Virus record (IMG/VR): IMGVR_UViG_3300031994_000045
Span: 1 to 64,000 of that record
Length of the DNA: 64,000 nt
Source of the DNA: a virus
Taxonomy: Duplodnaviria; Caudoviricetes
Strand: one strand, 5' to 3'
Position 1 is the first letter of the stretch; the number at the start of each line of letters is the position of its first letter. A model generated the notes under the pieces. It saw only the letters and a program-made list of their open reading frames with translations, was not told the DNA's origin and searched no databases. The position numbers and the translations under genes were made by a program. This document shows positions 3,001-57,776 of this stretch, one piece after another.

Positions 3001-6000
3001 CGGAGACGGAACATGGTCTGCGCGACCACGGCCATCTTCACGCCGTTGAGGACGTTGGAGAACGCGTATTCGCCCGGGTTGTGGAACGCGGCCTTCATCG
3101 CCGAACGGACTTCCTTCGCCATCTTCGTGTGGCCTTCCGCCGCCAGCCAGCGGCTGATGCGGTCTATGTCCGCGTCGATCGCGCCCTGCCGGTTCGTGAG
3201 GGGGTTCATGACGGAGTCCGTGAGCGGCATGTTGATCATGTCGCAGAGTTCGCGCATGTACCGTATCGACGGGTCGTCGGACGTGATCGAGTTCAGGAAG
3301 TCCGCGAGGTACGGCAGGTTCTTCCTGAAACCGAGGAACTCCCCGACCTTCGTGCCCGCGAGCCGCCGCGCGAGCTCGGCCGTGTTCTTCCGGTAGCCCA
3401 TCGCCGTGTTCCAGAACCCGCACGCCGCGACCGGCGACTCGAACCTGGTCGCGAACGCGAAGAACGCCGAAAGCCCGACGGACGCCGCCTTCGAGTACGA
3501 CACCGCCCGGTCCAGCACGCGGTGCCCGGCCCACACGGTCGGGGCCTGCACCGACCCGAACAGCTGCCGCAGGTAGCCCTCGGCCTCGCTCCCGTTCGGG
3601 CGCATGATCCGCTCGCTCGCGAACTTCGTGAGTATGTTCACGTCGTCGCTCGCGCTGTCGTCCGCGCACCAGATCTCGTCGAAGAGGCCGCGCGCCCCGA
3701 TCTCGTCCGGCGGCAGGAGATGGTAGCGCGCCCTGGCGTCGTCCTTGGACTTGGCCTTCGCGAGCGCGCCGGCCGCGGTCGCGATCGTCTGCATGTTGGC
3801 GAACCCCGACTTGCCGGCGTCGTACTTGACCATCCCCTCGACGGACCGCAGCCTGTCGAGGACGAACCTCGCCGTCGCCTGCCAGAACTCGTCGGGGAAG
3901 AGCCCCTGGGAATCCTCGGACGGCTTGACGACGAAGTTCGGCGCGCCGTCCGTGCCGACCGTGGTCAGCATCTGCGCGAGGCAGCCCCGGAACCGCTCCG
4001 CGTGCGTGATGGACTCCGCCATCGACCGGAGGCGCTCCGTCGCGGACTTGGAGGATCCGAGCCTGCCCTGCGTCCGGAACATGTCCTGCTCGGACATGGA
4101 GCAGATCCTGCCGCGGACGGCCATGTCCGCCTCCTGGTCGTCCATGATCTTCTGCTGGAGCTGCCCGTGCAGGTGGTACACGTCCACGAGGTCCTGCCCG
4201 CCGTAGCCGCATCCTCCTTCGTCGTAGGCCATGGTGAGCGGGGTGTGCCCGGGGTCGCCCGGGTGCTGGGCCTCCGTGACGACGTGCGCCGTGATGATGT
4301 CGAAGACGAGCCGGTCGAACTCGAACACCGTCATGTCGGGACGGATGTCGAACCCGTAGATGCTGCTCGTGTTCGCCTTCGTGTACTGCCCGGCCAGGAT
4401 CTGCTTGAGGAAGCCCTCGACGTCCGCCACGCGGCGGCCGAGCCCGAGGACGCGGCCGAGGTACATGAGCTGCCTGTTCGAGATGTTGGCGAGCTGCCCG
4501 TCGCTCCCGCGCTCGAACGCGCGCAGGTTCCCGAGGATCTCCCTCTCCTCCCTCTGCTCCATGCGCCCGTCCGCGTTCCGCACGTAGTACCGGTGCGTGA
4601 CCTCCTTCGAGTGGCTCTTCAGCGTGTCCTGCAGCGCGGCGAACTTGTTCCTCAGGTATTCGTCCGTGGAGATCTCCCCGCGGAACAGCTCCCTCGCGTT
4701 CTTCAGCTTGTCTACGATGGCCTGGTGGTGTCCGGTGCCCGCCTCGAACCAGAGGCCCTGCGCGCGTCCCGACAGCGCGCGTCCGGCGTCGGACTCCGAG
4801 AGCCACCTCGACCGCCCCGCGATCCTGTTGAGCCTGTTGGCCTCCGCGGCGACGACCTCCGCGAGGTAGTCCATGTCGAGGAGCTCCGCGCGCCGGCCGC
4901 CGTTCCTGATTAGCTCCGTCCGGTAGGAGTCCTCGGACTCCCATGCGCGCTTCACCTCGGAGGCGGGGACCACGAGCACGACGCGGTGGGTCGCCGGGGA
5001 CTCGTCGGCGAGCCCGGCTTCCTTCAGGATCTTCGTGACGCGCTGGTGGAAGTCGGCGTCGCCGATGCTCACGCCCGCGGTCCTTGTCCGCCCGACGTCG
5101 TGGAACGCGTTCAGGATCTGGACGTAGATCCCGTCCGCCCTAAACGCCTTCCTCTTCGCGTCCCACCCGAGCACGGACCACGGTATGCCCTCGAGCATCC
5201 GGTTGAGGAGCTGGTCGAGGTTCGACGGGCGCCCGGCGCTCGCCACGTGCCCGTAGAGGCGGTTGAACACCGCGTCCGGAGAGTACGCGTGGCCCTCCGC
5301 CGTGGCCGAGGCCATGTCTCCTTCGGCCTCCCCGGCGGCCTCCAGCACCGACTTGAGGATCCTCCGGTCGACGTACGGGATGTCGTAGCCCGTGTACACG
5401 CCGTGCCCGTTGGCCATGCAGGCGACCGTCTGCGACACGAAGTGGACGAGGTTCACGTCCTCCTTCGTCATGGCGCGTCCGGCGGTCTTGGCCGCGAAGT
5501 TCACCAGCCCGAGGAGGATCCCCCGCACTCCCGCGACCTTCTTCACGGAATGGCGATGCCTTTCCTCCACGGTGAACAGGCCTTCCTGGCCCCCCTCCCC
5601 GAAGCCCAGGTCCGACGTGCCTTCCTCTATCTGGTTGGGCGACTCGCCCGGCATGCAGTTCGCCGCGAGGTAGAAGTCGATCATGTTCGCGACGCGGTTC
5701 GTCTCCTCGGTGGCCGCGTTCAGGGACACGTCCGTCATCATGTCGCGGAACGACCCGCCGTAGAACTGCTTTTGGAGATCCGACGCCTGCCACGAGCCGG
5801 GCAGCTGGAGTATGAGCTGCGGCGTCAGGTCGGGCTCCAGGACGCCCTCGGCCGGAGGGACCGCGAGCGGAACCTCCTGCGTCGGCGCTTCCCGCGTCGG
5901 GATCGTCGCGTCCTCCCCCGGCGCCGGCTGGTCCATGCCGTTCTCCCGCACGAACCTCCGCACGACCTGGGCGACGCCGAGCGCCTTCGCGGCCGCGTCG

Positions 6001-9000
6001 ATCGCGTCCTGCACGAACCGCGACGAGAAGTCCAGCGTCCCGTTGCTGAAGCCGAACGCCTTGCCGGGCTCGTACCGGACGGACCCGTCCGCGTTCCTGT
6101 GCATGGTGGCCGCGCCCGTCATGTACTGGAGGATGTATCCGAAATAGTTCGACGCGGCCTGCTCCTCCGTCCATCCGCGCCGGTCCGAAAGTCCCCAGAA
6201 CGACGGGATCATGCGCTTCAGGGGCTCGCCGTTCATGACGGCCGTGACGAATCTCACGACGTCCCGCGCCCTGTGCCTGCAGGCCTCGGCCTGGAGCTCG
6301 AACCGCTTCGCGTCGCTCTCCACGTCTGCGGGAACGTCTCCGTCCGGGAACCTGGCGCGGGCCGCTTTCGCGCGCGCCTCGAGGTCCTCGGCGGCCTTCA
6401 TGAACCAGTCCCGCGACGCTTCCGCGCGGCCGCGGCAGAACTTCGTCCACTCCGACGGAAGGACCCCGGCGAGCATGTTGCCCATCACGTAGTCGGCCGA
6501 CGCGAACTGGGCGGGGGACGACGGGACGTCTTCCGGCGTCCCGTATTCGTTCTCGGCCTTGCGCCGGACCGAATACTCGTGCACGAGCCTGACGACGAAG
6601 CCGGCGATCTTCTCGTCCGACATGAGCTGCCGGCCGAGGTCGTTCAGTGACTTCGTCCCGTCCTCCGCGTAGTCCCAGACGTCCAGCCCGAGCAGGTCGC
6701 ACACGTGCCCGAGGAGCCGGTGCGCGGTGTATGCCATGAGCTCGAAGTCCGGCCCGTCCGCCTCCCCTACGTCGGCCTTGTCCCTGAACTTCGCCACGGC
6801 CTCCGCGATCCCCGCGAGCTCCCCGCCCGCCGGGCTGCCCACGCGCTCCAGCGCCTCCCTGAACAGGAGGGACACGCGGTCTCCGACCGGGACGGACGGA
6901 TCCGATATCCGCTGGGCCAGCGTCGGGCCGGAGGGTTCCTCCGCGGGCGGCACCGGAGGCTCCTCCTTGCGGCCGAGCATGTCTCCCATGACGGCGTCGA
7001 ACGTCGTGCGGTTCTCCGGCTTCCTGCCGTCCCTGACGAACTTCGAGGCGGCAGCCTTCACCTCGTCGAACCCGCAGGCTCCCGCGCGGAACTCGGCGAC
7101 CAGCCCCGCGAGGTCCGTTCCGTCCGCCCCGATCTCCCCCTCCATCCGCTCCCACCTGTCGGGCGCGCCGAAGTCCACCTTTTCGCCGAGGAGCAGCTTC
7201 TCGAGCTTCTTCTCCTGCCCCGCGTCGAAGTCCAGGACCTCCTTCGCGTCGCGGCTCGAGAAGTCGGCCGAGATCATCATCTTCATGAACACCGGGACGC
7301 CCCGGGCGTCGTACGCGAGAGCGCAGGACAGGTACGCCTGCGCGGTCCTCCTGAACTTCTCGAACGTCCTCTCCGGGTCTCCGACCCCGGCGGCCAGGAG
7401 CTTGCCCCGGACGGTCCGCGCCTTGTCCCCCGTCACGTAGTCGGCGAACGCGTCCGCGGCCGCCTCCTCGTCGAAGCGGCCGTCGGCCGTCCGGTACTTC
7501 TTCAGCAGCGCGGCCTCGTCCTCGGCCGTGCAGACGCCGGTCTTGCGGTAGAAGTCCAGCATCTGGTGGAAGTACTCGTGGAAGAGGGTGTGGTAGGACG
7601 AGACGTCCGACAGCCTGATGACGCCCGAGAGGGCCATGAGGGCCCTCGTGCCGAGATACTTCTCGGCCTTCGCCGACGTGCCCTTCACGCGGAGCCCCGC
7701 GGCGTTCGCCATCGCGACGCGCTCCTCCTCGGTCAGGGACAGCAGTTGCTCCATCGTCATCTTCTGCCCGGCGCCGTCGTTCACGGCGTTGAGGATGGCC
7801 TGGTTGTAGTTGGCGTTGTTCGCCTTCATCGCGAGGAAGTCGCCGTAGGAAACGTACGTCACGACCTCCTTCGTCTCGGCTTGCCCGTTCTCCTCGACCT
7901 TGACCTTGCGCGTGATCCTCAGGAGGTTGGACGGGACGCCGTTCCCGCCGACGACCCGCTCGACCTTGCAGCCGGTCTCCTTCGACCAGTCCCCGAACAC
8001 GCGCTCGAGCGCGGCGCGGATGTTGGCCTCCGGGTTCGCGAAGAACCTGTCCTTGTCCTCGGGATGCTTCCCCTCGAGGAACGAGAACAACCCCGTCCGC
8101 CGCAGGCGCGTCGCGGCGAACGACGGATCGGCGACGCCGGACCGGATCGACGGGACGTCCAGCGCCGTCGCGGCGTGGGTCCGCACGAAGTCCTCCAGCT
8201 TGTCCCGCATCAGCGGGCTCGAGATCCGCGACAGCGCGTCGCCTCCGTCGAACGCCGCGCTCTGCGCCCACTCGGAGAACTGGCTCCCGTAGTCGGTCCA
8301 CGCCCGCTCGAGCACCTCGTCGATGGCCAGCCCGTAGTTGAGCAGCTCTCGCTTCCTCGCCTGGGCCCCGTGCCCGCCGGCGGGGGTGGCGGCGACAGTG
8401 CTTTCGCCGTACCTCCCCGTACGCATGCCGCGGGCGCGCCTGCCGAACTCCGTGAGGTCCCAGGAGAACGCCTTCGTCTCGTTGCGCGGGTCCGCGAGCC
8501 ACGCCGCCATCTTCTTGTCTGCCGCGAACGCCGCGAGCTTCTCCGACACGAAGTCGTTCACGGCCTCCTCGATCGTGAAGAACTCCCCCGACGGGCCCCT
8601 GAACCGGACGCCCTTGATCGACGTCTGCGGACGGAGCTTGTGGCTCTCGCCCTCCATGTACGCCGACACGATCCTCCGCCGGCCGGGGCCCCCGGGCGCG
8701 AAGCGCCCGTCGCGGACGGACGTGTCCCTGTGGATGGCGTGCGGCGACGTGTATTCGGCGCGCGCGATGTAGTGCAGGACGGAGAATGGGGTGACGAGCC
8801 GCTGCGTCGCGGGGTGGTCCAGGTCCTCGCGCGTCACGTCCGGCATGCCGGACAGCGCGGCCACCCTGCGGGCCAGCCGCAGGTCGAGGTCGGCATACGC
8901 GCTTCGGCGCGCGAACAGGTTGTATCCTGCGGCGCCCCTCGGGACCATGCAGAGCTGGCGCAGCACGGGATTCTGCGTGACCGCCGCGCCCCACCGCTCC

Positions 9001-12000
9001 CACTCGTCCACCCTGCTTCCGAACATGGCGGACACGTTGCCGCGGGCGTTCGAGTCCCGCGCGGGGTCGAACTCCTCGTTCGCGCACATCGAGAGCTGGA
9101 TGCAGGCCGCGAGCTCGGCTCCGGTGAACGTCGTCCCCCCGTGGCTGCACACCACGTCCTTCCTCGCCGCGAGCTCGTTGTACCCGGCCCGGAGGACCTT
9201 CGCCGCGTCCGCGCTCGCGCGGAGGACGAGCGACACCTCGTTATGCTCGCCGACCTTGACTTCCTCGCCGGTTTCCGGGTCCGTCTCCGTTATGTCGCGG
9301 GTGTCTGTGCGGAGCATGGTGAGCATGTCGACGACGTTCTGGGACATCCCCGCGGCCGTCCCCTTGTTCAGGGCCGACTCCACGAGGCCCTTCAGCGCCT
9401 TGGCGAACGACGGGTACTTGTCCTCGACCAGCTTCCGGTACGGGGCGTCGCCGAACTTCACGACGCCCGCGCGCACGCAGCCGAGCAGGTGGGACAGGTT
9501 CAGCCGGTTCGCCTGGATGGTGCCGAGGTCCGCGTAGTCGGCCGCGAACTCCCGCGCGACCGCGAACAAGACGGCCTCGTCGTTCGCGGGGTTCCCGTCC
9601 GAGTCCGCCACGGACATCGGCCGCTGCCCGGTGCGCCCGAGGTACCACGCCCAGTCGGAGGGGTCTTCGGTCGCCTCGGCGAAGTCGGCGTCGCCGCGGA
9701 CGCTGCGGTCCGACGCGAGCGGGTTCCGGCCGGCCGCGATGTCCTCGAGCCGCAGCGCGGAGGCCAGGTAGGCGACCGACATCGCGTCGCCGGTCGCCGC
9801 GCCTCCCTCGATCGCGCGGTCCATCTTGCCGAGGAGCCCGGTCGCCCGCGACCCGCCCATGCGCAGGGCCGTGTCCGGCGAGAGCCCGTCCTCCGCCTCC
9901 AGCAGGTCGTTCAGGGCCTGGAACATGGACAGGTCCTTCTTCGCCGCGGCGAGCGCGGAGCCGATGTCCGCGGACGACAGGAACCGCAGCCCGACGGCGA
10001 CCCTCGTCGCCTGGTCGACGCCGGCCGGACGGCCCTCGTTCTTCCCCTCGAGGACGTCGGCGATCGCGAGCGCGGTCTCCTCCCCGAAGATCTCGGAAGC
10101 CGGGCGCCATCCGAAGTTGTACGCCTCTTCACGCGCCTCGGCGTCGATGAAGTCGGCTTCCGTCATGCGGAGCGCCCTCGCGATCCGCTTCATCAGCCGG
10201 TCGATGCACGTCGGGACCATGTCGCCCCTGGCCGGACGCATGCTGTCGTTCGCCGCGTCGAACCAGGAGAGCTCCTTACTCAGGCTGGGCATGCTCGGGA
10301 CTGGCTTGGAGTACCGCCCGTACTGCCCCTCGCCGATGTCGAGCCTGCCGTCCTTGACGAGCAGGACGTCCTTGAACGCCTGCTTTGCGATGCACCCGCC
10401 CTTCGTGAGGACCATCGTGTTGTACATGCCGAGCAGGGTCTTCCGCTCGTGGCCCGGCAGGAACGTGTCCCTCGTCGAATGGTCGAAGAACGCGTTGGCC
10501 TTCGCGATCAGGCTCGGAAGCGTCGTGTCCGACGCGTGCAGGTCCCTGGCGAACCCCACGAGCTTCACGAAGAACCACTTGTCGTCCCACCGCGGCCCCG
10601 TGCCGGAGCGCTTCGGCGCGTCCCGCCACGCCTTGTATTCCTCGTTCGCGTCCGAGAGGAGCCTTGCCGTCAGGCAGTTGAGCAGCCCGGCCTGCCACCC
10701 GGCGCGCGGCGCGAACAGGTCCTTGACCACGTCGAAGAGCGCGTTCGAGATCTTGTCCAGGTGCCCGATGAAGTCCTCGATCGGGCGGTACCCGTCGCGC
10801 TCCTCGTAGAGCGCGGGGGCAAGCCCGCGGACGTAGGAATCCGTGTCCGCGTAGCCCGCGAGGTGCTCGAGGGCCGCCTGGAGAGACACCGCGACGCCCC
10901 GAGCCCTGTTCGCGTCGGCCGCGCAGCCCGAGAGATACGCGGCGACGCGCGGGTCGAGCAGGTCCAGCGTCGGCATCGTGTGGGACGAAAGCTTGTCGAT
11001 GCACCGCTGGAAGACGTCGTAGTACTTCTCTCCGGCGACCTCCGACTCGTCGACGCCGAGGACCTGGGCCGCAAGCGCCGCCGCCTGCCCTCCCGACTTC
11101 ATCTCGACGTCGCCCGAGACGACCTTCGTCCCGACGGGGCTGCGTCCGGCGAGCCCGTAGTCCGGGATCGTCCTGTCCCCCGCCATCGCGTTCACGTCCC
11201 TCGCCCCGAACTCGTCCTGCGTCTCGTTCGGCATGAGCCTGTAGTTGTCGATCTCCTCCTGGAGCAGCACGTTGCCGATGAGCTCGCGGAAGCGCCTGGA
11301 GGGCTTCACGATCTCCAGCCCGTCCTCGGTCGTCTCCGTCTCGAAATACTGGGGGAACCGCGTCCGGAGCAGGTTGACCGTGTCCTCGGCCCCGAGGAAC
11401 CTCTCCAGGTCGTCCGCCCCGGCGTCTTTGAGGCGGGCCGCGATCGTGGCGTGGATCTGGTCCAGTATCTCGCGGTCGTGCCGGTCGAGCCCCTTCCCGG
11501 ACATGACGGTGCCGGTCGTCGAGTCGCCGTCCGTGTCGGACCCCTGCGAGGAGTTCATCAGCGGAGGAAGGATGTACAGCGCGTGCTCGTCCACCTGCCC
11601 CGACGCCCGGTCGAACAGGACCGGGGCCTGGACGCGGATGAGGCCGCCCGCCGACTCGAAGTTCCCCGACGGACGCCGGTCGCCCGCGAAGAACGCGCCG
11701 CCGAGATAGATCGTGCGCGCCCCGTTCTTGTCCATTTTCTTCTGCGCGTCCCCGCGGAACTCGAACGCGGCGAGGTCGAACCTGTCGCCGCCGTACCGCT
11801 TCCCGAGGAACAGGTCGGAGAACGAGACCTTCATGAGGTCGCACGACGGGTTCTCGTTCAACGTCTTCCCCGTGTAGTCGGTGAACGCGGCACCCAGCGT
11901 CTTGGCCATGGCCGCCTTCACCTTCCTGTTCCGCATCCGGTCGAACGCCTCGATGTACGCGGCGAGGTACGCGACCGTCTCCATGTCCTCGTCGGCCGGT

Positions 12001-15000
12001 CCGTATGCCTGCTCCAGCCTCTCGAGGTTGGCCCGGTACGCGTCGGACCATTTCCGGCTCCCGTCCACCGCGGCCCGGATCTCCGAGAGGTCGGCGTTCT
12101 CCGCGAGGTGCCACCCGTAGCGGAACGACGGGTCCAGGACGTTCACCTGCCCGGACGAGTAGGACCGGCCGACGCCGAACGCCGCCTTTTCGGCGGCGGA
12201 GAGGACCCTCGCGTCGCGGAAGCAGTCCTTGTCGTACTCCGTGACCCCGGCCGAGTACGAGTATTTGACGGAGTACGTGCCGTCGGGGTTCCTCGTGACC
12301 TCGCTGGCCTTTATGCCCGAGCCCATGAGCACCGCGTGCATGGAGTTCACGTAAGGCTTCATCGCGCCCGCGTAGACCGTGTTCATCCTGCGGACGACCC
12401 GTTCCTGGACGTCCTGGCTGTTGGGATGGGCCCTGTACGCGGCGTACAGGTCCGGGTCCGTCTTGAGCAGCTCGTCGAAGAACCCGGGCTGCGCGCGCAG
12501 GAGAAGGTACGGGACCGCCCGCGACACGTTGATCGCCTTCGTCGCGTACCACGTGAAGTCGGCCTGCTCCGGAACCATCTTGCGGAGCCTGCCGGAGTTC
12601 GCGACGACGTCGCGCGTCCAGTTGGTCGCGGCCGGATGCTCGAGGGAAGGCCTCGCGCTCGCGTCCGAGTTGGCCATCACCTGGCCGGACATCGTCCGCG
12701 TGAAGTAGCGGACGCGGAACCCGCCGGACTCGCTCGCGACGACGGAGAGCTTGTCGCCGTCCTCCGTCCCGTAGTCCTGGAAGAGCCCCGACTCGGAGAG
12801 CGGCTTCGTCTCCGTGACCTCGCCCGTCGGCAAGGTCCACTCGGCCTCGATGGACCCGACGTCCTCCGCGGACAGCTCGGACTTTCCGAGGACCTTGGCG
12901 ATGACCGGGAGCATGGTCGTCACGGACGCCGCGGAGTTCTTGAACGCGGGAACGACATGCGACCCGCCGAGGAGGGATTTCGTTTCCCCGTCGACCCGGA
13001 CGTCGAACCTGACCACGTTCCCGCTGGCGTCCTTCTCAAAGCCGAACGTCAGCTCCTTCCCGCCGGCCTTGACGGTGAACGGCTTCCCGGATTTCGCGAA
13101 AAACCCGCACTTGTCGCTGACGGACCCGGTCTTCACCGTCTCCATGTCCGTGCAGAACGTGGTCGACGACTGGAAGAACGCCTCGACGAGCTTCAGCGCG
13201 GATTCCCTGTACGCCTTGTCCTCGTCCGAGAGCGGCGCGTCGGGGGCGGGAAGGTCGAGCGTCCCGGCCTTTATCCCCAGGACCTCCTCCAGCCTCCGGC
13301 GCTGTACGCGGCAGGCCTCCGCCAGGGCGCCGGACGCCGGGACCGGATCGGTCTCGTACATGCCGAGCCCGAAGTCGTGGCCCTGTCCCTTGAAGAACGT
13401 CGCCCCGAGCACGTGGTTCTTGAACGACACCGCGCGCGGATTGGTCGCCTGCGCGCGCTGCGACTCGATCAGGAACCCGTGGTTCAGGTACATGCCGAGG
13501 TTCTCGCCGGCGTCGTTCCCGGAGACCAGGATGTCGCAGTACAGGCCGGGCGTGACCCTCGTCTTCCCGTCCATCGCGGTCACGGCCGCGTCGACCTCCT
13601 CGACCTTCCCGTCGACGGTCTTGCGCATCCGGTCGCGGTAGGTGGAGAACGGGACGCCCTGCGCGAGCAGCACCTGGACACGCTTGGGGTCGATCTGGTC
13701 GCATCGCGCCGCCGACGCGACGACCGCGTATATCGCGCGGTAGAGCGCGTCACGGTCGGCGGACGTCCCGAGCTTCGTCCCGTCGTCGACCGACCTCGGG
13801 AGGACCCCGTCCTCGACCATCTTCCGCGTGACCTTGTTCATCGCCCAGTCCGCGCCGGCATGGATCCCGTCCAGGACCGCCTGCATCACGTCGTGCGGCA
13901 GGCAGACCGAGTACACCGTGGGCTTCTCGCCGTGGTACAGCTCGAAGTAGCCCGTCCTCGTGTCCCCGCGCACGAACCGCGAGATGTTCGCGTTCGCCAC
14001 GATCACCGACAGGTGCTGCTTGTCCACGAGCCTGTTGTTCTCGAGCCTCGCGCCCGCCGTCACGGCGACCAGCCGGGTCCCGTCCTCGAACCGGCCTCCC
14101 CTCTGGAGGTAGCCGTCGAGGACGCCGAGCGGGGCCAACAGCCTGTCCTCGATCGACATCATCATGACCGGGGGCGACGCCGGGGTCGCCGTGACCTGCG
14201 AGGAGTCCTCGATGGACTCCTGCCGCGTGCCGGACATGCGCTCCACGGAACGCGGGGCCGACGCCGCGTACAGCTTGAACACGGAATCGAAGTACGAGCT
14301 GACGGCGCCGCCCGTCATCGGGTTCTTGAACCACTGGTAGCGGGGCGCCGCCTGCGGCTGCGGGTTCCCTCTCGCGAACAGGCGCGCGATCACGTCGTCC
14401 GACAGCGCGCCCAGGAGGTCGCCGACCGAAAGCCCCGCGCTCACGATGTCGTCATACTGCTTTTTCTTTTCCCCTTCCTTGCTGAAGGTCGGCGTGCGGC
14501 CCTTCGTCCACGTCGCGCGCTGTATCGCGGCGATCGTCGGGTTCAGGACGGCGGAGCTCAGCAGCACGCACCTGGACTTGAGCTCGGCGCTGGCGGCGCA
14601 CGACCTGAACAGCTTCAGCAGGTCGTCCGCCACCCTCTCCATCGCGGCCCCGTCCTTCGCGTTGCGCACGGACCGCACGATCCCGCCCAGGAGATCGGGG
14701 CTCCGGAGCGCGTACGCGAGCTCGTTCCCGGGTCCGATCACGTAGTCGAGCGCGTCCGCGACGGCGGCCATCCGGCGGACGAGCGCGTTCGCGAACGCGA
14801 CGAGCGTCTTGTCGTCCCCGGGGGCCTTCTCGAACGCAGCCCCGATCTCCGCCCCTTCGTTCGCGGGGGCCAGTATCCGCTCGAGCTCGGCTATCGTCTT
14901 CGTCCTGAGCGGGGTCCCCGCCTTCTTTTTCTCGAACCATTTCGCGGACCCGGTCGAGAGCAGCAGGTTGTCGAGCGCGGACATGGTGTCGGACATCTGG

Positions 15001-18000
15001 GACGACGTCGACCCGGACGGGAACAGGCGCGACATCGCGTGCGCCACGGACGCGCGGACGGAAGACACCGACGCGAGGCCCGCGCTTCCGAACGTCTCGA
15101 GCGCGCCGACACCGTCGTAGTCGGCGACGGTGACGCGGTTGACGTCGAGGGGCGCCATCGTGCCGATGAGCGCGAGGGCCTGCGCGCGGCGCTTTCCGGT
15201 CGGCGGGATGTTCCGCACGCCGTTCAGGACGAACGCGAGCTCGTCGTGCCCGGCCGCGTGCAGCGCCGACACCGCCCTGGAGAGGACCGCTCCCGTCGTC
15301 TTCAGCTCCGCGGAGACCCGCGACGAGTCATTCCACACGCCGGTCGCGTCGGAGATCCTCCCGGCCGCCATGCCTTCGCGCATGGAGCGGAACACGTTGA
15401 ACAGCATCGCCAGCGGCTCCAGCGCGTCGGCGCGGGACAGCCTCGCCGACCTCTCGGCCTCCAGCTCGGCGATCGCCTTGGCGGGCGCGTCCGTCCCCTT
15501 CAGCCGCTCGGCCTCGGCGGCCAGCCTGTCCGCGGCCTCCCTCTCGGACCGGACGATCCTCGGGATCTCCGCGGACATCCGCGCGAGGACCTGCGTGAAC
15601 GCGCCGCCCTCGGACGGGAACACGTAGCTCCACTGCCGTCCGAGGTCCATCAGATCCTTGTTCTCTATCGCGGCGTTGGCGCGCTTCGCGTCGAAGAAGA
15701 TGTCCTGGTTCCCGGAGCCGTCCGAGATCGTCTCCGCGAGCGAGGCCCACTCCTCGTCGTCCTCCCTCTCCTCGGCGTTCCCCGCCCCGGCCGGCTCCTC
15801 GGCTCCCGCCGCGTCCACGAACATGGACCATATCCGGTCCGCGTTCGCCTTGTAGCATCCGCGCTCGAACAGGAACCGCAGCACGGCGAACCTGGACTTG
15901 AGGGCGAGCTCGCGCCCGCCGGCGCCCCCGGGCGGCGCGCTCATGAGCCCGGGGCTCAGGAACTGGAGGTTCCGCCCGGCCGCGAACGCGACGTCGTCCG
16001 GGACGACGTCCGCCGCCTGCGGGCGCACGACCTTCTTGTCGGTCTCCGAGGACACCCCGCCGAACCCGCTGCCGATGCTGGGGGCCTCGTCGCCCGCGTC
16101 CCCGCCGCTGTCGAGCGCGTGCTTGAGCACCCTGTACATCTCGGCGGAGCTGATCGTCCCGCCGGCCTTCCTGTACGCGTCGGCGAACGCCTTGCACTTT
16201 CCTCCCACGGCCCCGACGAGCAGGCGGACGCTGCGCTCTGCGACGTCGGTGAAGTTCGTCACGGTGGTGTCGTCGATGACCGGAGGGACGCCGGAGGCGA
16301 GGCCGGCGGCGCTCATGTCCCCGGGGACACCGTACCACTGGAACACGATGCCCGTCTTCCTGGCCCCCTCCCCGCCGTTCGTGAACATGGCGGACGCGCG
16401 CGACGCCATGAGGTCCGGGCCGGAAGGGGCGAACGCGTCGAGGAACCGTCCGAGCCCGTCGAGCCGAATCGTGCCGTCCGGACCCGCCGCGTCCTCGGCG
16501 AAGAACCCCCGGCCGCCCAGCGACTCGTCGAGGGCCGAGATGAACAGCGGGACCCACGGGCTGCGGCGGGCCCGGTCCGCCACGTAGGCGAGCTCCGGGC
16601 CGAAGAGGAACCCGTTGCCGTACTCGTTCAGCCCGCGCTCGTCGCTGAACACGGCGATCGCGGCGGCGATGGCGCCCATCCTGGACGGGTTCACGCGGCC
16701 CGGCGAGGAGGGCAGGCTCGCCATCGCGTCCCTCACGCGCTGCGCCATCTCGGGGTTGCTCTCCTCGAGCTCGGCGATCGCCTCGTCCGCGGCGCGGGTG
16801 AACGCCTTGTCCATCTCCCACAGGATCCCGACGAACGCTGACGGGTCGTCGAACGCCTTGCCCGGCTTGGTCGCGGCGTCGTAGATGGCGCGAGAGAACG
16901 CCGAGCGGAGCATCATCTCCGAGTCTCCGCCGGAATAGTAGTCGCTCTGGAGGTAGACCGTGTCGCCGAACGCTATGCCGTTCGGCCGGATCGAATAGCT
17001 CGCCTCCCCGCGGTACGTGTCGGTCGCGGCCGCGTCCTGCTTGCTCCTCGTGATCCCGAAGCGCTCCAGCATCAGCTCGGCCGCGCGCTCGTAGCCGACG
17101 GAGAACGGATCCCCTTCCTTTCCGGTACCGCGCACGTACCGGCGCGTGTCCGCGTCGTCGGCCGCGAGCTCGGCCGCGAGCGCGCGGGCCGTCGCCTCGT
17201 CGTCGTCCTGCTGCCAGTCGCCGTCCACGCGACGAAGCTGGGGCGGGTAGAGAAACTCGTCCACCTCGATGCCCTTCTCCCGATCCACCCCGTAGAACGC
17301 CTCGTACGCGGCGCGGGCCTTCTCCCTGGTCCCGTGCAGCAGGAGGACGAGGGACGTCGCGTCCTTCGACGAGATGCTGTCGTTCTGCAGGACCGCGAAC
17401 TCGCGCCACCTGGCGACGACGCCCCGCCGCACGGTCGCGACGCCGTCCGGACCGACCTGCGTCACGTCGCTGTACGTTCCGTCAGGCTTGGGGACGGGAA
17501 CCTCCTCGAGCATCCGGGTCGCCTCCAGCACGGTCGAGCCGGTGACGGACACTCCGTTCGCGGTCAGCGTGACGGTCCGGTTGCCGTCCTTGTCGCGACC
17601 GTACGACGTCGTCACCTCCGCGGTCGTCCCGTCGGCGTACTCGAACGCCATCGGCTCCGAGTTCTCCACGGCGAGCCGGAGCTGCGTGAGGTACTGCGCC
17701 GCGGCCTGCTGGTTCTGCGCCTCCGTGAACTCGCCGTAGTACCGTCCCATGGCGAACATTACCCGGCGGAGGTCGCCGGGGGCCAGCTGGCCGGAGGGGT
17801 CCAGGCGAAGAAGCTCGCCGACGTCCACCGTGCGGGCGAGGGCCGCGTCCTTCACGTGCCCGCCGTTCGACACGTCGTACACGGCGCGCATGTTGCGGAA
17901 GGCCGGCATCGCCCTGATCGCCGCGACGACCTCCGGCGTGTTGCCGTAGCGCATCGCGCGGTCGTAGCTGAAGGCTATGCTGGTCGTGTTGACATTGCCG

Positions 18001-21000
18001 AACCTCGAGTGCGTATTCATCGCCACCGCGTCGCTCGCGGCGATCCTCGCCAGGCCTTTCACGATCTCCGCCTTCGCCGCGGCCATCTCCTTGCCGGCGA
18101 CCGCGGCGCGGAACTTCTCGTCCCGGAAATCCTCCGTCGTCTCCGTCCCGAACCGGTACACGACCTTGCCGCCGGACTCCTCCCGGTGCTTGTGGGCGAC
18201 GACGCGCAGGGCGGCCTCGTTGACGTCGCCTTTCGACACGGCGAGGACGTTGCGGGCGGCGAGAAACGTCTGCGCGTACTCGCGGAGGGTCGTGCGGTAT
18301 TCCTCCTCCCCCTCCTTCTTGAACTCCTCCAGAATGTCGCCAGAGACGTCGCCGAGGGACCGGCGCCGCAGGGCCTCCGCGTCTTCCGCCGTCATCTTCC
18401 CGTCCCCGACCATCCGCTGGAGATACCGGTCCCGGCCGGCCTGGACGGAGCGCTCGTACAGCTGGCCGACCTCCCCCATGAGCTGCCTGGGGAGCTGCGC
18501 TTCCTCTATCGCCCACTGGACCGGGTTGCGCGCGGCGAGCTCCAGGCGGCCCGTCGTGATCGCATCCAGTATGCCGGTGACGCGCATGAGGGCCCGGCGG
18601 CCCCACCAGTGGCTCTGGCCGAGCTTGTACTTGAAGTCGAGCCACTTCTTGCCGAGCCTGCCCATGGCCTCGGCCGTCTCCCCCGCGTAGTCGGAGGAGA
18701 ACTGGTTGACCTGCACGCCCTCCCGGACCGAGAGCCGTTCCCTGACCTCGGCCGTCAGCGCGGCGTCGTTCGACACGAAAGGCAGCGCGGCCGTGATCTC
18801 GCTCGCGACGGTGCCCGCGTCGGCGTCGTCCGTCAGCTTCAGGTCCGGGCCCCGCCTGACGAACTCGGCGTACTCGCTCCCGTCGGCGAGGGCCTTCCGC
18901 TTCGCGGCGTCCATGTACCCGGGGTCCTTGCGCTTCAGCCGCTTGATCGCCTCGACGCCTTCCTTGCCGAACAGCGCCTCGGCCTGGTGGTCCGCAAGCT
19001 GCTTTTCCAGGTCCGCCTCGGTGTTCGAGAGGTCGATGATCCGCTGGGCCTTCTCCCGGAGAAGCGTCTCCATCTCGCCGTCGGAGATCTTGGCGTCGGA
19101 GATGTCCTTGTTCTTGTCGTTCGGCACGAACGACTTGTCCGCCAGGGCGGCCTTGACGGCCTGGGCCCGCGTGGGGGCGCGGGTGTCCTCCACGACCTCG
19201 CCGTCCACCTCCACGGCTCGTCCCGGCCGAGACTCCGGATGCCCCAGCACGTCGGCCCACGCCTTCTCCTCCCCGCCTTCTCCGACGGTCGCCTTCTCGT
19301 AGAGCGCCTGCGCCCCGGCATTGTAGTCCGAGAGCGCCTTGGCCGCGCCCTCGGAGCCGGCGGTCAGCGTGACGGTCGGCTCCGTGTTCTGGTTCTCCGC
19401 GATCAGCTTCGCGTCGTCCAGGGTCTCCGAGACCACCCCCGCCCCGAGGCGCGAGTAGAGGGAGTTCATCGTCAGCTGCGTCACCGCCGGGAACGAGAAC
19501 GACACCGCTTCCACGAGAAGCTGGTGCGGGTCCGGAAGCAGGCCGTGCATGGCCGCGGCCCACCGGTCTCGGGCCGTCGAGTCGGACGGTGAGTCGTCAA
19601 GCCCCATGAGCCCCTGGAAAAACCCGCCGTAGCGCTCCTCCGCCATCTCGGCGAGCACGCCGTCATACCCGACCCGCTGGAGCCACGACGCCATCTTCTG
19701 GGGCGTCCAGCCCTTCTCCAGCATGTTGTGCGCGACGAAATATGTCAGCCCGGCACGCATCTTGGTCAGCTTGAGCTGGTCCACCATCGCGGCCTTCACG
19801 AGGTCCTTCTCGCTCTTCAGCCCGAGCCTGGACAGAACCTCCTTGATGTTGCCGACCCCCTTCGCGCCGGCCACGATCTGCCCGACCTGCGTCTTCGACA
19901 TCGTCGGAAGCGCGGCCGAGGCGCCGCCGGTCTCGACAAGCCGCGCCGATCTCTTCCCCAGGTAGTCCGCGACGGCCTGCGTGAGCCGGGTGCGGTTGGC
20001 GGCCTCCATCATCTTCTTCGTCCCGAACACCGCCTCCAGCTTGCGGGACATGTACGAGCCGACCTCCCTCGTGGCGGCGAGGAAGGGCGCGTTCTTGAGC
20101 GTGGGCGCGGCGACGCCCTCGGCAAGGATGTTGAACCCCCGGCCGGACGATTCGGATATGTACTCGACGAGACCGGACCCGATGGCGATCGCGCGGGCAT
20201 GGTCCATCATTTCCCGGTCGCCGGTCTGCAGCGCCGTGGACTGGATGCCGAGCTGGCCCCGGACGACGAAGTCCCCCGGGCCGTTGCCGGTCGCGGCGGA
20301 CACCACGGGCCACAGCGGGACCTGCATCCCGAACTGCATCGCCCCGCGCACGGGCGCCTCGACGAACGAGGCCTTCAGCGCCTCCTTGAACGCGGCCATC
20401 TTCCCTCCGAGCACGGTTCCGCTGCGCATGATCGTCCCGGCCCCGTGGTAGATCGACGTGTCCCACCGCAGCATGCCGTCGAGGATGCCGTCCCCGACCC
20501 ACCGCGCCACGCGCTGCGCCCCGTTCACGAACCCCGTGCCCTTGTACTTGAGCATGAAGCTCCTGGTCGCGTTGTTCACCAGGTGCTCGGCCACGTCCGA
20601 GGCGTATCCCCGGCTGACGGCCTGGCCGCCCAGCGACTCGCTGATGGACCCGGTGACGGCCGTGACGGCAGACGGCCGACCGAGCGCCTTGTTCATCGTC
20701 GCCGTGAGGTACGACGCCTTCAGGTTGTTGATCTCCTCGCCGGTCAGCTTGTCGAGTCCCTTCCGCACCGCCGCACGGTCGGCCCAGTAGTTGGCGAAGC
20801 CTTTCCAGAACCCATCCTTGGCCCTGTCCGGCACGGTGCCGTACACCTTCGCGAGGGCCGCCCTCTCGAGCGACTGCACCCACCCCTGCTCGACCATGTT
20901 CGCGGCGTCCCCGTTCACCAGGAATATCTTGGCGAGCCTGGCGTCCATGGTCAGGTCGGCCACGTCCTTGAACGACTCCGCGGTCCACCTCGTGGCCTCG

Positions 21001-56707: not shown

Positions 56708-56729
56708 TTTATTTTATCCTTGGTTGCGC
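56708..56729 (+). promoter_or_regulatory. 22-nt early motif, copy 1
   Basis: TTTATTTTATCCTTGGTTGCGC; the sequence repeat is certain, its promoter role is inferred. Confidence 0.75.
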
Positions 56730-56755
56730 AACAGCGCAGAAAGGAGCCGGTACCC

Positions 56756-56809
56756 ATGACGTACCAAGTCTTTCCAGACGGCACGGTGGTTATAATCCGC
56801 CGGGCCTAG
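56756..56809 (+). CDS. 17-aa micropeptide MTYQVFPDGTVVIIRRA
   Basis: AAGGAG RBS at 56741-56746, motif upstream and terminator downstream. Confidence 0.5.
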   Translation: MTYQVFPDGTVVIIRRA

Positions 56810-56816
56810 TCCCCTT

Positions 56817-56848
56817 CCCCGAGCCCGAGTGGGTTCGGGGTTTATTTT
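56817..56848 (+). terminator. Intrinsic terminator
   Basis: CCCCGAGCCC-gagt-GGGTTCGGGG followed by TTTATTTT. Confidence 0.7.
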
Positions 56849-56862
56849 ATCCTTAATTGCGC
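56841..56862 (+). promoter_or_regulatory. 22-nt early motif, copy 2
   Basis: TTTATTTTATCCTTAATTGCGC. Confidence 0.75.
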
Positions 56863-56953
56863 GGAGAGAATCTGCGCGTCGTTCGTGCTGTCCTGCGTCT
56901 CAAGTCGAGATGCACACGAAACGACGCGCAGCACAGCTCAAGAGCGCATCGTT

Positions 56954-57340: not shown

Positions 57341-57348
57341 CCGCCCCA

Positions 57349-57380
57349 GCCCCGTCGCGCCTCGTGCGCGGCGGGGTTTT
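57349..57380 (+). terminator. Intrinsic terminator (identical hairpin at 57777)
   Basis: CCCCGTCGCGC-ctcgt-GCGCGGCGGGG followed by TTTT. Confidence 0.8.
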
Positions 57381-57381
57381 C

Positions 57382-57403
57382 TTTATTTCATCCTCGACTG
57401 CGC
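57382..57403 (+). promoter_or_regulatory. 22-nt early motif, copy 3 (degenerate)
   Basis: TTTATTTCATCCTCGACTGCGC. Confidence 0.6.
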
Positions 57404-57479
57404 CGGAATCCGCGCTGTCCTGCGTCCCGCGACTGGGACGCACGCGAGATGAAGACGCCTTGCCGAAAGGAGCAAGCCT

Positions 57480-57770: not shown

Positions 57771-57776
57771 CCGCCT

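What the first reader, a model, noticed from the sequence alone, without database searches (positions are those of the whole stretch)
11500..13450. Two-barrel RNA polymerase active site with an unusual DTDGD variant
Seen: FFAGDRRPSGNFES (R about aa 3537) ... ALYILPPLMNSSQGSDTDGDS (D3584-D3588, nt 11523-11537), plus upstream candidate second-barrel lysines SFKNHVLGATFFKG (~13386-13427) and CTDMETVKTG (~13125-13155). Established: R-x-P followed by DxDGD defines DPBB polymerases (cellular beta' NADFDGD, phi14:2 gp66 DFDID, RNAi RdRPs DLDGD). The context most resembles crAss-type 'RIP...S...VP...GSDFDID'. Thr at the usually hydrophobic position suggests a divergent lineage.
Basis: partly seen in the sequence, partly recalled or inferred. 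Interest (0 to 1): 0.9.

Follow-up and report, generated by a model that had tools for sequence, protein, structure and literature searches.

The report
Giant phage protein with RNA polymerase
A 7,447-residue gene of an uncultured ~100-kb cattle and sheep gut phage contains, in its middle, the catalytic core of a cell-type ("two-barrel") RNA polymerase; the core resembles the enzyme that crAss-like phages inject with their DNA, but sequence searches cannot link the two.

Summary
The minus-strand ORF starting at ATG 22286 has DTDGD at aa 3584-3588 (nt 11523-11537), RRPSGN at 3537-3542, and the upstream lysines at the stated places. The motif alone is weak evidence, because 0.23 DxDGD are expected by chance in this protein. 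However, QGSD[T/M/F]DGDS is invariant in all 52 giant homologues (27-72% identity), and it sits in the most conserved block of the whole protein. An AlphaFold2 model of aa 2700-3899 (pLDDT 82, pTM 0.82) matches the crAss-like phage phi14:2 virion RNA polymerase gp66 best (VIA-align Z 13.1, 667 residues). QDE-1, plant RDR2, P23-45-type phage RNAPs and cellular large subunits follow. No sequence method links the family to any known RNAP. The gene ends the late/structural module. A zincin-type HExxH lies ~1,300 aa after the active site, as in phi14:2, and relatives carry lysozyme or ADP-ribosyltransferase modules. Five copies of an AT-rich 21-nt motif mark the start of the early genes. I read it as a virion-delivered early-gene RNA polymerase fused into a polyvalent cargo protein, which makes it a new sequence family of a known kind. 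This scan has reported fused crAss-type virion RNAPs, and an 8,057-aa sheep-gut case, on other DNA.

The parts
3..22286 (-). Giant ORF. ATG at 22286; 7,428 codons lie inside the window, and the frame continues across the circular contig junction to a stop at codon 7,447.
   Evidence: GC3 is 0.94 against GC2 0.47. An independent assembly gives 7,433 aa with the same termini. 52 full-length homologues of 5.7-7.9 thousand aa are on file.
10590..14189 (-). RNA polymerase core module, aa 2700-3899 (both barrels, connector, bridge-helix-like and trigger-loop-like elements).
   Evidence: AF2 pLDDT 82.3, pTM 0.82. 6vr4 gp66 residues 541-1641 align at Z 13.1, 667 aa, Z 11.2 and Foldseek E 1e-6.
13383..13421 (-). 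Candidate second-barrel (beta-like, DPBB-B) basic hairpin: K2956-x-H2958 ... K2966-G-Q2968.
   Evidence: All five residues are invariant in 17-19 homologues. They lie on two adjacent strands of the model, E255-261 and E264-271. The assignment to DPBB-B is inferred.
13125..13148 (-). Invariant D3047-x-E3049-T-x-K3052-x-G3054 strand-turn-strand in the N-terminal barrel region.
   Evidence: Its role is not assigned.
11502..12350 (-). DPBB-A (beta-prime-like barrel), aa 3313-3595, with a ~180-aa mostly helical insertion.
   Evidence: Model residues 614-896 superpose on designed and VCP-type DPBB domains: 7dvc_A Z 6.0, 84 of 87 aa, rmsd 2.8 A; 7dbo_B Z 5.7. They also superpose on the beta'/Rpb1 barrel: 8cro_A 100 aa at rmsd 2.9 A, 6psq_J 96 aa at rmsd 3.1 A.
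11661..11678 (-). R3537-R-P3539-S-G-N3542 loop, the counterpart in pattern of beta-prime N-R-A-P-T-L and of crAss R-I-P-T.
   Evidence: R, P, S, G and N are invariant. Only the inactivated homologue P0008 changes R to H and G to C.
11520..11546 (-). Metal-binding loop Q3581-G-S-D3584-T-D3586-G-D3588-S3589.
   Evidence: Present in 52 of 52 giant homologues. hhalign places it on crAss T-G-S-D-F-D-I-D-K.
10851..10952 (-). Bridge-helix-like 34-residue helix, aa 3779-3812, with invariant R3796, V3800 and Q3803.
   Evidence: Model helix 1080-1113. It starts 195 aa after the first catalytic Asp, against 168 aa in gp66 (bridge helix 1529-1559). It lies inside the range aligned to gp66.
10695..10790 (-). 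Trigger-loop-like conserved motif, aa 3833-3864: Y...H3842-x-D3844-x-x-S-N-x-L-F-D-x-x-K-x-x-F-A-x-R-A-G-W.
   Evidence: Invariant columns. H3842 and D3844 are lost together with the three catalytic Asp in P0008.
7464..7580 (-). Zincin-type signature H4903-E-Y-F-H4907 ... E4940-E4941, 1,319 aa after the first catalytic Asp.
   Evidence: H, E, H, E and E are invariant in 19 sequences. phi14:2 has HEIMH 1,064 aa after its DFDID, in the next gene. The AF2 model is weak (pLDDT 58.7), and the zinc-peptidase fold hits reach only Z 4.2-4.9.
21360..21425 (-). Glycine-rich hydrophobic segment, aa 288-309.
   Evidence: Kyte-Doolittle scan. Weak PHROG tape-measure-like hit over aa 243-553, E 2e-5.
2646..2741 (-). 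Hydrophobic segment, aa 6516-6547, in the most conserved C-terminal region.
   Evidence: Weak PHROG tape-measure-like hit over aa 6551-6939, E 2.6e-5.
56708..59202 (+). Five copies of TTTATTTTATCCTTRRTTGCG at 56708, 56841, 57382 (3 mismatches), 58045 and 59182: candidate promoters for the phage polymerase.
   Evidence: These are the only matches in the 100-kb genome. All are on the + strand at the head of the plus-strand early module. It is the top AT-rich repeated 12-mer of the genome.

Best explanation
The giant gene encodes a single-chain, two-barrel, DNA-dependent RNA polymerase of the crAss/QDE-1 structural clade (aa ~2700-3900), embedded in a 7,447-residue polyvalent virion cargo protein. 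D3584, D3586 and D3588 on the beta-prime-like barrel hold the catalytic Mg2+. The R-x-P-S-G-N loop, an upstream lysine hairpin on the second barrel, a bridge helix and a trigger-loop-like H-x-D...SNxLFD motif complete the active centre. The protein is made late, packed into the particle, and ejected into the cell with the DNA. Its glycine-rich hydrophobic segments probably help it cross the envelope, and its zincin domain may cut it. It then transcribes the first early genes from five AT-rich 21-nt promoters at 56.7-59.2 kb, independently of host RNA polymerase. Shown here: the motif, its conservation, the fold, the collinearity with phi14:2, and the restricted motif copies. Inferred: catalysis, DNA template, packaging, ejection, processing and promoter use.
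For: 1) Conservation. QGSDxDGDS is present in 52 of 52 giant homologues at 27-72% identity. aa 3501-3600 is the most invariant block of the protein. 2) Fold. The model has pLDDT 82.3 and pTM 0.82. The best match in every library search is the experimentally proven virion RNAP gp66 of phi14:2: Foldseek E 1e-6, prob 1.0; Z 11.2 over 655 aa; Z 13.1 over 667 aa. Only three of 48,161 chains reach Z>=8, and all three are two-barrel RNAPs of this clade (gp66, QDE-1, RDR2). Nearly all further hits are RNAP large subunits or isolated DPBB domains. In BFVD, crAss phage proteins follow an unnamed top hit. 3) A natural loss-of-function contrast. The 3,024-aa homologue P0008 keeps the other invariant residues but has lost R3537, D3584, D3586, D3588, H3842 and D3844 together, as expected if these residues form one functional site. 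4) Context. The gene is the next-to-last gene of the minus-strand late block, which contains a collagen-like tail fibre, a peptidase/decoration-like protein and a probable podovirus-type portal (ESM lead). Replication genes lie on the other strand. phi14:2 has the same layout: a ~100-kb genome, three giant virion proteins ending the structural block, the RNAP in the middle and HExxH next. gp66 is virion-packed and transcribes early genes. 5) Relatives carry Phage_lysozyme, ART-PolyVal or RadC-type domains in the same giant protein, at variable hot spots. This is typical of injected polyvalent proteins. 6) The 21-nt AT-rich motif occurs five times, only at the start of the early module. P23-45 vRNAP likewise uses an AT-rich pre-early motif.
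Against: No sequence method connects the family to any RNAP. Pfam gives nothing even at E<=10. PDB phmmer and profile searches give nothing. tblastn against 50,697 phage records gives nothing. hhalign against a crAss RNAP alignment aligns only the Asp loop, at E 0.46. The RNAP call therefore rests on a predicted structure plus motifs. Z 13 over 667 residues at rmsd ~5 A and 10% identity is a distant match. The PSGN loop and some linkers have pLDDT<50. Model coordinates could not be inspected, so the closeness of the lysines to the Asp triad is not shown. There is no proteomic or transcript evidence for packaging or early-gene use. phi14:2 early transcripts showed no common upstream motif, so the promoter analogy is with P23-45 and N4, not with the closest structural relative. 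Terminase and capsid genes were not identified, so the virion type is uncertain.
Confidence: 0.72

Rival explanations
1. Tape-measure-fused polymerase. The giant protein is the tail tape measure of a very long-tailed siphovirus with an RNAP module fused in, as in Thermus phage P23-45 gp96, and it works while lining the tail or membrane channel.
For: Weak PHROG hits to a tape-measure family (phrog_167) at aa 243-553 and 6551-6939, E ~2e-5. Glycine-rich hydrophobic segments. The precedent of a 5,002-aa TMP-RNAP fusion. gp96 appears among the fold hits at Z 6.2.
Against: The RNAP is in the middle of the protein, not at the N-terminus. The fold match to gp66 (Z 13.1) is far better than to gp96 (Z 6.2). 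The genes just upstream encode 696-, 815-, 349- and 725-aa proteins, not the small tail-tube and chaperone pair that precedes tape-measure genes. The probable portal resembles podovirus (SU10/P22) portals by ESM features. Both PHROG hits cover only the glycine-rich part of the profile.
Confidence: 0.1
2. Non-virion polymerase. The protein is an active RNAP but is not packaged. It acts in the cell where it is made, for example on middle or late genes, and the rest of the giant chain has unrelated roles.
For: There is no direct evidence of packaging. Phages such as P23-45, phiKZ and AR9 encode non-virion two-barrel RNAPs.
Against: It lies at the end of the late/structural block, not among the early genes. 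It is fused to hydrophobic, zincin and, in relatives, lysozyme or ART modules typical of ejected proteins. Its closest structural relative is a virion enzyme. A polymerase first made late could not read the early-module motif at the time it is needed.
Confidence: 0.1
3. Catalytically dead relic. The barrel pair is kept as a structural or DNA-binding part of an ejection protein and no longer makes RNA.
For: One homologue (P0008) has lost the Asp triad yet keeps the rest of the core, so the scaffold can persist without catalysis. gp66 itself crystallised in a self-inhibited state.
Against: The three Asp, the Gly between them, R3537, P3539 and the H-x-D motif are invariant in 52 giant homologues down to 27% identity. 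That is hard to explain without selection for catalysis.
Confidence: 0.05
4. Chance motif in an unrelated giant protein.
For: 0.23 DxDGD are expected by chance in a protein of this size and composition. There is no sequence-profile hit to RNAPs.
Against: The motif is invariant in all homologues. It sits at the end of a confidently modelled double-psi barrel. The whole 1,200-residue model retrieves RNAPs as its top hits in three independent structure searches.
Confidence: 0.02

Closest known systems
Virion RNA polymerase gp66 of Cellulophaga crAss-like phage phi14:2 (PDB 6VR4; GenBank KC821624 locus gp077)
   Same: Best structural match: Z 13.1, 667 aligned residues covering gp66 541-1641, which includes both barrels, the connector, the bridge helix and the trigger loop. 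Same motif style, R-x-P-[ST] ... G-S-D-x-D-x-D. Same genome size (~100 kb) and the same place at the end of the structural block. A zincin HExxH lies ~1,100-1,300 aa downstream of the Asp loop.
   Different: No detectable sequence similarity: tblastn finds none, and hhalign gives E 0.46 on the loop only. The loop is DTDGD with the canonical Gly, not DFDID. The module sits inside one 7,447-aa chain instead of a 2,180-aa protein flanked by separate 1,797- and 1,421-aa proteins. The genome is 66% GC from ruminant gut, and its structural genes give no crAss PHROG hits. A repeated early-region motif is present here, whereas none was found for gp66 transcripts.
Fused RNAP polyproteins of Crassvirales (e.g. 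cr1_1 4,551 aa, cr10_1 4,460 aa, Fpv2 4,401 aa, crAssphage 4,091 aa)
   Same: The RNAP core is fused to neighbouring cargo proteins in one giant virion-protein gene. The literature expects cleavage by a zincin domain.
   Different: This protein is 1.6-1.8 times longer and appears to join the whole cargo set. It belongs to a separate sequence family.
QDE-1 / RDR2 eukaryotic RNAi polymerases
   Same: Second-best fold matches: Z 8.8-8.9 over 431-461 aa and Z 8.2 over 434 aa. They are single-chain two-barrel enzymes with DxDGD.
   Different: They are eukaryotic, ~1,000-1,400 aa, RNA/DNA-templated and unrelated to virions. Identity is 8-10%.
P23-45 gp96 tape-measure-fused vRNAP and gp64-type non-virion RNAPs (PDB 8H2M/8H2N, 8F72, 8F5M)
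   Same: A two-barrel RNAP fused to a giant virion protein. An AT-rich promoter motif sits at the pre-early genes. Fold hits at Z 6.1-7.5.
   Different: There the RNAP is N-terminal, the rest is a tape measure, and the structure is flat and lacks a clamp. The structural similarity is weaker than to gp66.
N4-type virion RNAP (Schitoviridae, ~3,500 aa)
   Same: The same strategy: a giant polymerase packed in the capsid, ejected, and reading private early promoters (established knowledge; one search lists the papers).
   Different: The N4 enzyme is a T7-like right-hand polymerase, an unrelated fold.
Cellular RNAP beta-prime / Rpb1 catalytic barrel
   Same: The barrel carrying the Asp loop superposes at rmsd 2.9-3.2 A over 96-100 residues, 16-18% identity (8cro_A, 6psq_J, 2pmz_A). 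The N-A-D-F-D-G-D pattern is matched by G-S-D-T-D-G-D.
   Different: Here both barrels are in one chain. There is no Pfam RNA_pol_Rpb1 match even at E<=10.

Membership tests
Two-barrel (DPBB) RNA polymerase superfamily | A double-psi beta-barrel ending in a DxDxD metal-binding loop | tested here: met
   Model residues 614-896 superpose on isolated DPBB domains (Z 5.7-6.0, 83-84 aa, rmsd 2.8-2.9 A) and on the beta'/Rpb1 barrels. D3584, D3586 and D3588 are invariant.
Two-barrel (DPBB) RNA polymerase superfamily | A second barrel facing the first and carrying conserved basic residues | tested here: inconclusive
   Whole-core superposition on gp66, QDE-1 and gp64-type enzymes spans both barrels. 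K2956, K2966 and K3052 are invariant on beta-strands. No domain-level match for this barrel alone was obtained, and the coordinates could not be inspected.
Two-barrel (DPBB) RNA polymerase superfamily | A bridge helix and trigger loop after the catalytic barrel | tested here: met
   A 34-residue helix (aa 3779-3812) and the conserved H-x-D...SNxLFD...RAGW element lie at gp66-like distances, inside the range aligned to gp66 1529-1641. This is met at fold level only.
Two-barrel (DPBB) RNA polymerase superfamily | Mg2+- and template-dependent RNA synthesis abolished by Asp substitutions | not testable with these tools
   Needs biochemistry.
crAss-like (Crassvirales) virion RNAP, gp66 orthologues | Significant sequence or profile similarity to gp66 orthologues | tested here: not met
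   tblastn of the core against phage records finds no match. hhalign of family against family gives E 0.46 over 27 columns. hhalign against gp66 alone gives E 0.52.
crAss-like (Crassvirales) virion RNAP, gp66 orthologues | A DFDxD loop with a non-glycine fourth residue | tested here: not met
   All nine crAss-type sequences aligned have D-[FY]-D-[IV]-D. This family has D-[TMF]-D-G-D in 52 of 52.
crAss-like (Crassvirales) virion RNAP, gp66 orthologues | Closest structural neighbour is gp66 | tested here: met
   Ranked first in Foldseek and in both VIA-align searches.
crAss-like (Crassvirales) virion RNAP, gp66 orthologues | Encoded at the end of the virion module, next to a zincin-bearing cargo protein | tested here: met
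   Late-strand position after the tail genes. HExxH lies 1,319 aa after the Asp loop, against 1,064 aa in phi14:2.
crAss-like (Crassvirales) virion RNAP, gp66 orthologues | Genome carries Crassvirales-type capsid, portal and terminase genes | tested here: inconclusive
   No PHROG, Pfam or PDB sequence hit for the candidate structural genes. There is only an ESM-feature lead to SU10/P22-type portals. No structures were predicted for them.
P23-45-type tape-measure-fused vRNAP | RNAP at the N-terminus of a tape-measure protein, in a siphovirus tail gene set | tested here: not met
   The RNAP lies at aa 2700-3900 of 7,447. The upstream genes are large (349-815 aa) and show no tube or chaperone signal. 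Only weak hits to the glycine-rich part of a TMP profile were found.
N4-type (T7-like) virion RNAP | Right-hand single-subunit polymerase fold | tested here: not met
   The model is a two-barrel fold. No T7-like polymerase appears among the listed hits.
Polyvalent proteins of phages and conjugative elements | A very large chain joining several unrelated enzymatic or effector domains, with variable domain content among relatives | tested here: met
   This protein combines the RNAP core, the zincin signature and hydrophobic segments. Relatives add PF00959 lysozyme, PF18760 ART-PolyVal or PF04002 (precomputed Pfam), at insertion hot spots and at the C-terminus.
Zincin-like metallopeptidase (the domain downstream of the RNAP) | HExxH helix plus a downstream Glu ligand on a zincin fold | tested here: inconclusive
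   H4903, E4904, H4907, E4940 and E4941 are invariant. The model is poor (pLDDT 58.7). Several zinc peptidases (lethal factor, PPEP-2/3, lugdulysin, Dcp) match residues ~95-310 only at Z 4.2-4.9. There is no Pfam hit.

The most novel reading that the evidence does not exclude
These ruminant-gut, ~66-70% GC, ~100-kb phages are a lineage that sequence searches cannot tie to Crassvirales. They have merged the entire ejected cargo into one ~7,400-residue chain: envelope-spanning segments, a canonical-loop (DxDGD) two-barrel RNA polymerase, a processing protease and swappable effector domains. The polymerase may work while still tethered to the ejection conduit, reading five private AT-rich promoters on the leading end of the genome, so that transcription helps pull the DNA in. 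If so, the crAss-type virion polymerase would be an old, widespread podophage invention that extends beyond Bacteroidota phages, with this family closer to the ancestral DxDGD state.
Probability: 0.25. Interest if true: 0.8.

Novelty: new variant of a known kind. Interest (0 to 1): 0.62.

Why it matters
Virion-packed two-barrel RNA polymerases are known from crAss-like phages (Bacteroidota hosts) and from one Thermus phage group. This family shows the same solution in GC-rich ruminant-gut phages whose proteins are invisible to Pfam, PHROGs and BLAST, so the strategy is probably much more widespread than annotation suggests. The family keeps the canonical DxDGD loop that gp66 lacks. It therefore offers a natural comparison for the odd, self-inhibited DFDID site of gp66, and a further branch for tracing the origin of the QDE-1/RDR clade. 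It provides 52 full-length sequences, a confident model, a natural catalytic-dead variant and a candidate promoter. Together these make a testable system for asking how a 7,400-residue chain is packed, ejected, possibly cut, and switched on.

Tried and rejected
- Pfam on the whole protein in three pieces gave nothing relevant. At E<=10 on the core and on the 160-aa loop region it also gave nothing.
- PHROGs gave only weak tape-measure-like hits on the glycine-rich parts.
- PDB phmmer with the core gave no hits.
- PDB hmmsearch with a 4-sequence profile gave only insignificant hits: inteins at E ~0.2 on model residues 390-483, and others at E>=1.
- tblastn of the core against 50,697 phage records found no match.
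- hhalign of the family against gp66 alone and against a 9-sequence crAss RNAP alignment was not significant, although the second put the Asp loops in register.
- The search for related loci with the single protein in IMG/VR found nothing. With the alignment it found one IMG/VR contig, two JGI metagenome contigs and one MAG contig.
- The look-up of encoding contigs refuses proteins over 5,000 aa, so the context of most relatives could not be read.
- Candidate portal, capsid and terminase ORFs gave nothing in PHROGs, Pfam or PDB sequence searches.
- Six-frame searches of the genome with Terminase_6N, TerL_ATPase and SU10_portal gave no match.
- ESM Atlas on the 434-aa ORF returned only unnamed viral clusters.
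- The second AF2 job, on the zincin region, gave a poor model (pLDDT 58.7). Its fold search stayed below Z 6, so the protease assignment remains a motif-level inference.
- The 21-nt motif was not found in two distant relatives. A k-mer scan of the 77.6-kb relative gave no clear equivalent.
- A literature search for DTDGD returned only oligonucleotide notation. No paper on this lineage was found.
- Complex prediction and read laying were not used. No claim here depends on them.

Full report
**What the window is.**
- The window is the first 64 kb of a single 100,129-nt virus record at 66% GC. CheckV rates it 100% complete.
- Its ends overlap by about 29 nt with two mismatches, so the assembly is circular or terminally redundant.
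- Late genes fill the minus strand from about 56.8 kb down through the origin. They include a collagen-like tail fibre at 38728-41001, with PHROG E values down to 1.7e-35. A protein at 46464-48692 carries peptidase, decoration and carbohydrate-binding-like pieces.
- The plus strand from 56.8 kb onward carries an SF2 helicase, a PD-(D/E)XK nuclease, a family A DNA polymerase and a DUF5906 NTPase.
- The same DNA occurs in sheep and cattle gut metagenomes from 11 studies.

**The observation.**
- A minus-strand frame opens at ATG 22286 and stays open to the window edge, 7,428 codons.
- Read across the contig junction it stops at codon 7,447. An independent 100,061-nt assembly encodes a 7,433-aa protein with identical termini. 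GC3 of 0.94 against GC2 of 0.47 marks it as the coding frame.
RRPSGN is at aa 3537-3542. DTDGD is at 3584-3588 (nt 11523-11537). The K-x-H...KGQ stretch is at 2956-2968. The D-x-E-T-x-K-x-G stretch is at 3047-3054.
- The bare motif proves nothing, since 0.23 DxDGD are expected by chance in this protein.

**Conservation.**
- An exhaustive phmmer search of 1.84 billion representatives with aa 2850-3999 found 23 proteins. Seventeen are giants of 5.7-7.6 thousand residues, at 30-71% identity. A second search found 41 clusters at 90% identity.
- None is named as a polymerase by any source.
- All 52 giant proteins on file have QG[S/A]D-x-DGD[S/T], with x = T in 48, M in 3 and F in 1. The Thr is therefore just a tolerated side chain, while the Gly, which crAss enzymes lack, is fixed.
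- In a full-length alignment, aa 3501-3600 has 20 invariant columns, more than any other 100-residue block. The pattern is G-G-S-x-F-x3-R-x-P-S-G-N-x-E-A-x2-G-x2-R-A-x2-P ... Y-x-L-x-P ... Q-G-S-D-x-D-G-D-S. From established knowledge, this mirrors the beta-prime barrel pattern N-R-x-P-T-L-H ... P ... H-P-L ... N-A-D-F-D-G-D. It also mirrors the crAss pattern Y-R-I-P-T ... G-S-D-F-D-I-D.
- K2956, H2958, K2966, G2967, Q2968, D3047, E3049, K3052 and G3054 are also invariant.

**Structure.**
- AlphaFold2 on aa 2700-3899 with a 19-sequence alignment gave mean pLDDT 82.3 and pTM 0.82.
- Foldseek against the PDB put phi14:2 gp66 (6vr4) first at E 1e-6, probability 1.0. The weaker hits were almost all two-barrel polymerases.
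- VIA-align on those candidates gave gp66 Z 11.2 (655 residues, rmsd 4.9 A, model 2-1186 on gp66 542-1645). QDE-1 scored Z 8.9, RDR2 8.3, gp64-type phage RNAPs 7.5 and Rpb1 7.6.
- A search of 48,161 representative chains that does not use Foldseek gave gp66 Z 13.1 (667 residues, rmsd 5.1 A), QDE-1 8.8 and RDR2 8.2. These were the only three chains at Z>=8.
- The aligned range of gp66 includes its two barrels, the connector (1095-1238), DFDID (1361-1365), the bridge helix (1529-1559) and the trigger loop (1598-1636), as defined in the gp66 paper.
- Model residues 614-896, which end in the Asp loop, superpose on stand-alone double-psi barrels: 7dvc_A with 84 of 87 residues at rmsd 2.8 A, and 7dbo_B. 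They also superpose on archaeal and bacterial beta-prime barrels at rmsd 2.9-3.2 A and 16-18% identity. The catalytic barrel carries a ~180-residue helical insertion.
- A 34-residue helix (aa 3779-3812) and the invariant Y...H-x-D-x2-S-N-x-L-F-D-x2-K-x2-F-A-x-R-A-G-W element (3833-3864) sit where the bridge helix and trigger loop sit in gp66.
- In BFVD, an unnamed viral protein is the top hit (E 2.9e-9). Proteins of crAss phages cr50_1, cr124_1 and cr118_1, and of phi14:2, follow.

**A natural control.** P0008 is a 3,024-aa homologue on a 9.2-kb contig of 59% GC. It retains the other invariant positions checked. It has changed R3537 to H, D3584 to S, D3586 to G, D3588 to N, H3842 to R and D3844 to N, plus four residues beside them: G3541, G3582, S3583 and S3589. 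The joint loss ties the trigger-loop-like His/Asp to the Asp triad as one functional site. It also shows what a dead copy looks like, and none of the 52 giants looks like that.

**Relation to known families.**
- No sequence method sees the relationship. Pfam is silent even at E<=10. PDB sequence and profile searches are silent, and so is tblastn against phage genomes.
- I built a crAss RNAP alignment from nine phage records. hhalign aligned only 27 columns, at E 0.46. These were the two Asp loops, correctly in register.
[quoted passage not shown] Structurally it is nearest to the crAss/QDE-1 clade. It is not a member of the crAss gp66 orthologue family by sequence or by loop type.

**Whole-protein architecture.**
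- The protein is collinear with the phi14:2 cargo block. In phi14:2, three giant virion proteins of 1,797, 2,180 (the RNAP) and 1,421 aa end the structural module of a 100.4-kb genome. The last carries HEIMH 1,064 aa after DFDID.
- Here an invariant HEYFH...EE lies 1,319 aa after DTDGD. Its model is poor, and zinc peptidases match it only at Z 4.2-4.9. The protease remains a motif-level inference.
- Crassvirales already contain fusions of up to about 4,550 aa. This chain is 1.6 times longer.
- Relatives add lysozyme, ART-PolyVal or RadC-type domains, at a few insertion hot spots and at the C-terminus. This is the behaviour of injected polyvalent proteins.
- Two hydrophobic segments (aa 288-309 and 6516-6547) flank the whole protein.

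**How it probably works.**
- By analogy with gp66, which is virion-packed, rifampicin-resistant and transcribes the early genes, I infer that the protein is made late, packed, ejected and then transcribes the first early genes.
- One independent observation supports this. The sequence TTTATTTTATCCTTRRTTGCG occurs five times in the 100-kb genome, allowing up to four mismatches. All copies are on the plus strand between 56,708 and 59,202, each ahead of one of the first plus-strand genes. It is the top AT-rich repeated 12-mer in the genome.
- P23-45 vRNAP uses an AT-rich pre-early motif. phi14:2 early transcripts showed no shared motif, so this is a difference from the closest structural relative.

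**What remains open.**
- Catalysis, template type, packaging, cleavage and promoter use are all inferred.
- Virion morphology is unknown. A tape-measure-fused arrangement like P23-45 gp96 is the main rival. It fits poorly: the module is in the middle of the chain, the upstream genes are large, the probable portal looks podovirus-like (a lead only), and gp96 scores far below gp66.

**Verdict.** The protein is a new, sequence-orphan family of a known kind (a virion two-barrel RNAP in a polyvalent cargo protein), with the canonical DxDGD loop and an exceptional size. Earlier reports of this scan describe fused crAss-type virion RNAPs and an 8,057-aa sheep-gut case on other DNA. I did not test whether that one belongs to this family.

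Noticed in passing
L017:125-9199 (protein P0008, Logan ERR12318434): A 3,024-aa homologue of the polymerase region has lost the three catalytic Asp, R3537, H3842 and D3844, but keeps the other invariant residues. It looks like a naturally inactivated, shorter derivative on a 59% GC contig.
   Followed up: partly
Proteins P0032, P0034, P0040, P0041, P0046, P0056 (relatives): Some relatives carry extra precomputed Pfam domains inside the giant chain: PF00959 lysozyme, PF18760 ART-PolyVal and PF04002. Their unaligned insert segments cluster just before the RNAP core, around aa ~4,800-5,500 and at the C-terminus. The last ~450 aa of the window's own protein are also not conserved.
   Followed up: partly
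L005:13429-16041 (-), i.e. genome 97,429-100,041: The gene after the giant ORF (871 aa) overlaps its stop. It has no family hit. It ends in several P-G-S-L-S-Y-R-G-P-R-x-G-A-I-E-like repeats and an Arg/Lys tail (RRRRRKRR), so it may be a DNA-binding internal protein.
   Followed up: no
window 1-29 and genome 100,101-100,129: The contig ends repeat about 29 nt with two mismatches. A naive end-to-end join puts the giant ORF in the wrong frame and would extend it falsely to 8,329 codons.
   Followed up: yes
window 16196-22286 (-), aa 1-2030 of the giant protein: There is no cysteine in the first 2,030 residues, while 40 cysteines are spread over the rest.
   Followed up: no
window 22342-38080 (-) and 53086-56805 (-): The large late proteins (696, 815, 349, 725, 434, 900, 227, 672 and 1,240 aa) have no Pfam, PHROG or PDB sequence match, and no terminase profile hits the genome. 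Only ESM features hint that the 900-aa protein (32131-34830) is an SU10/P22-type portal.
   Followed up: partly
window 44001-48000: GC drops to 57% here, against 66-70% elsewhere, over genes next to the tail-fibre region. This may be a recently exchanged host-recognition cassette.
   Followed up: no
window 12741-13020 (-), aa 3089-3182 (model residues 390-483): A beta-rich insert between the first barrel and the connector gives weak, insignificant profile hits to mini-inteins (Hint fold, E ~0.2). No splicing motifs were seen.
   Followed up: no
L021 (G001:C1, genome positions 68,992-69,245): The 77.6-kb relative has five copies of GACAACGTCATATCGAAC spaced 39 or 78 nt apart. They look like replication-origin iterons.
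   Followed up: no
window 57340-57383 and 57768-57811: Two near-identical GC-rich hairpin-plus-T-run elements follow the first two small early genes. Each is followed by the next gene's leader, and the first runs straight into the next copy of the 21-nt motif.
   Followed up: no
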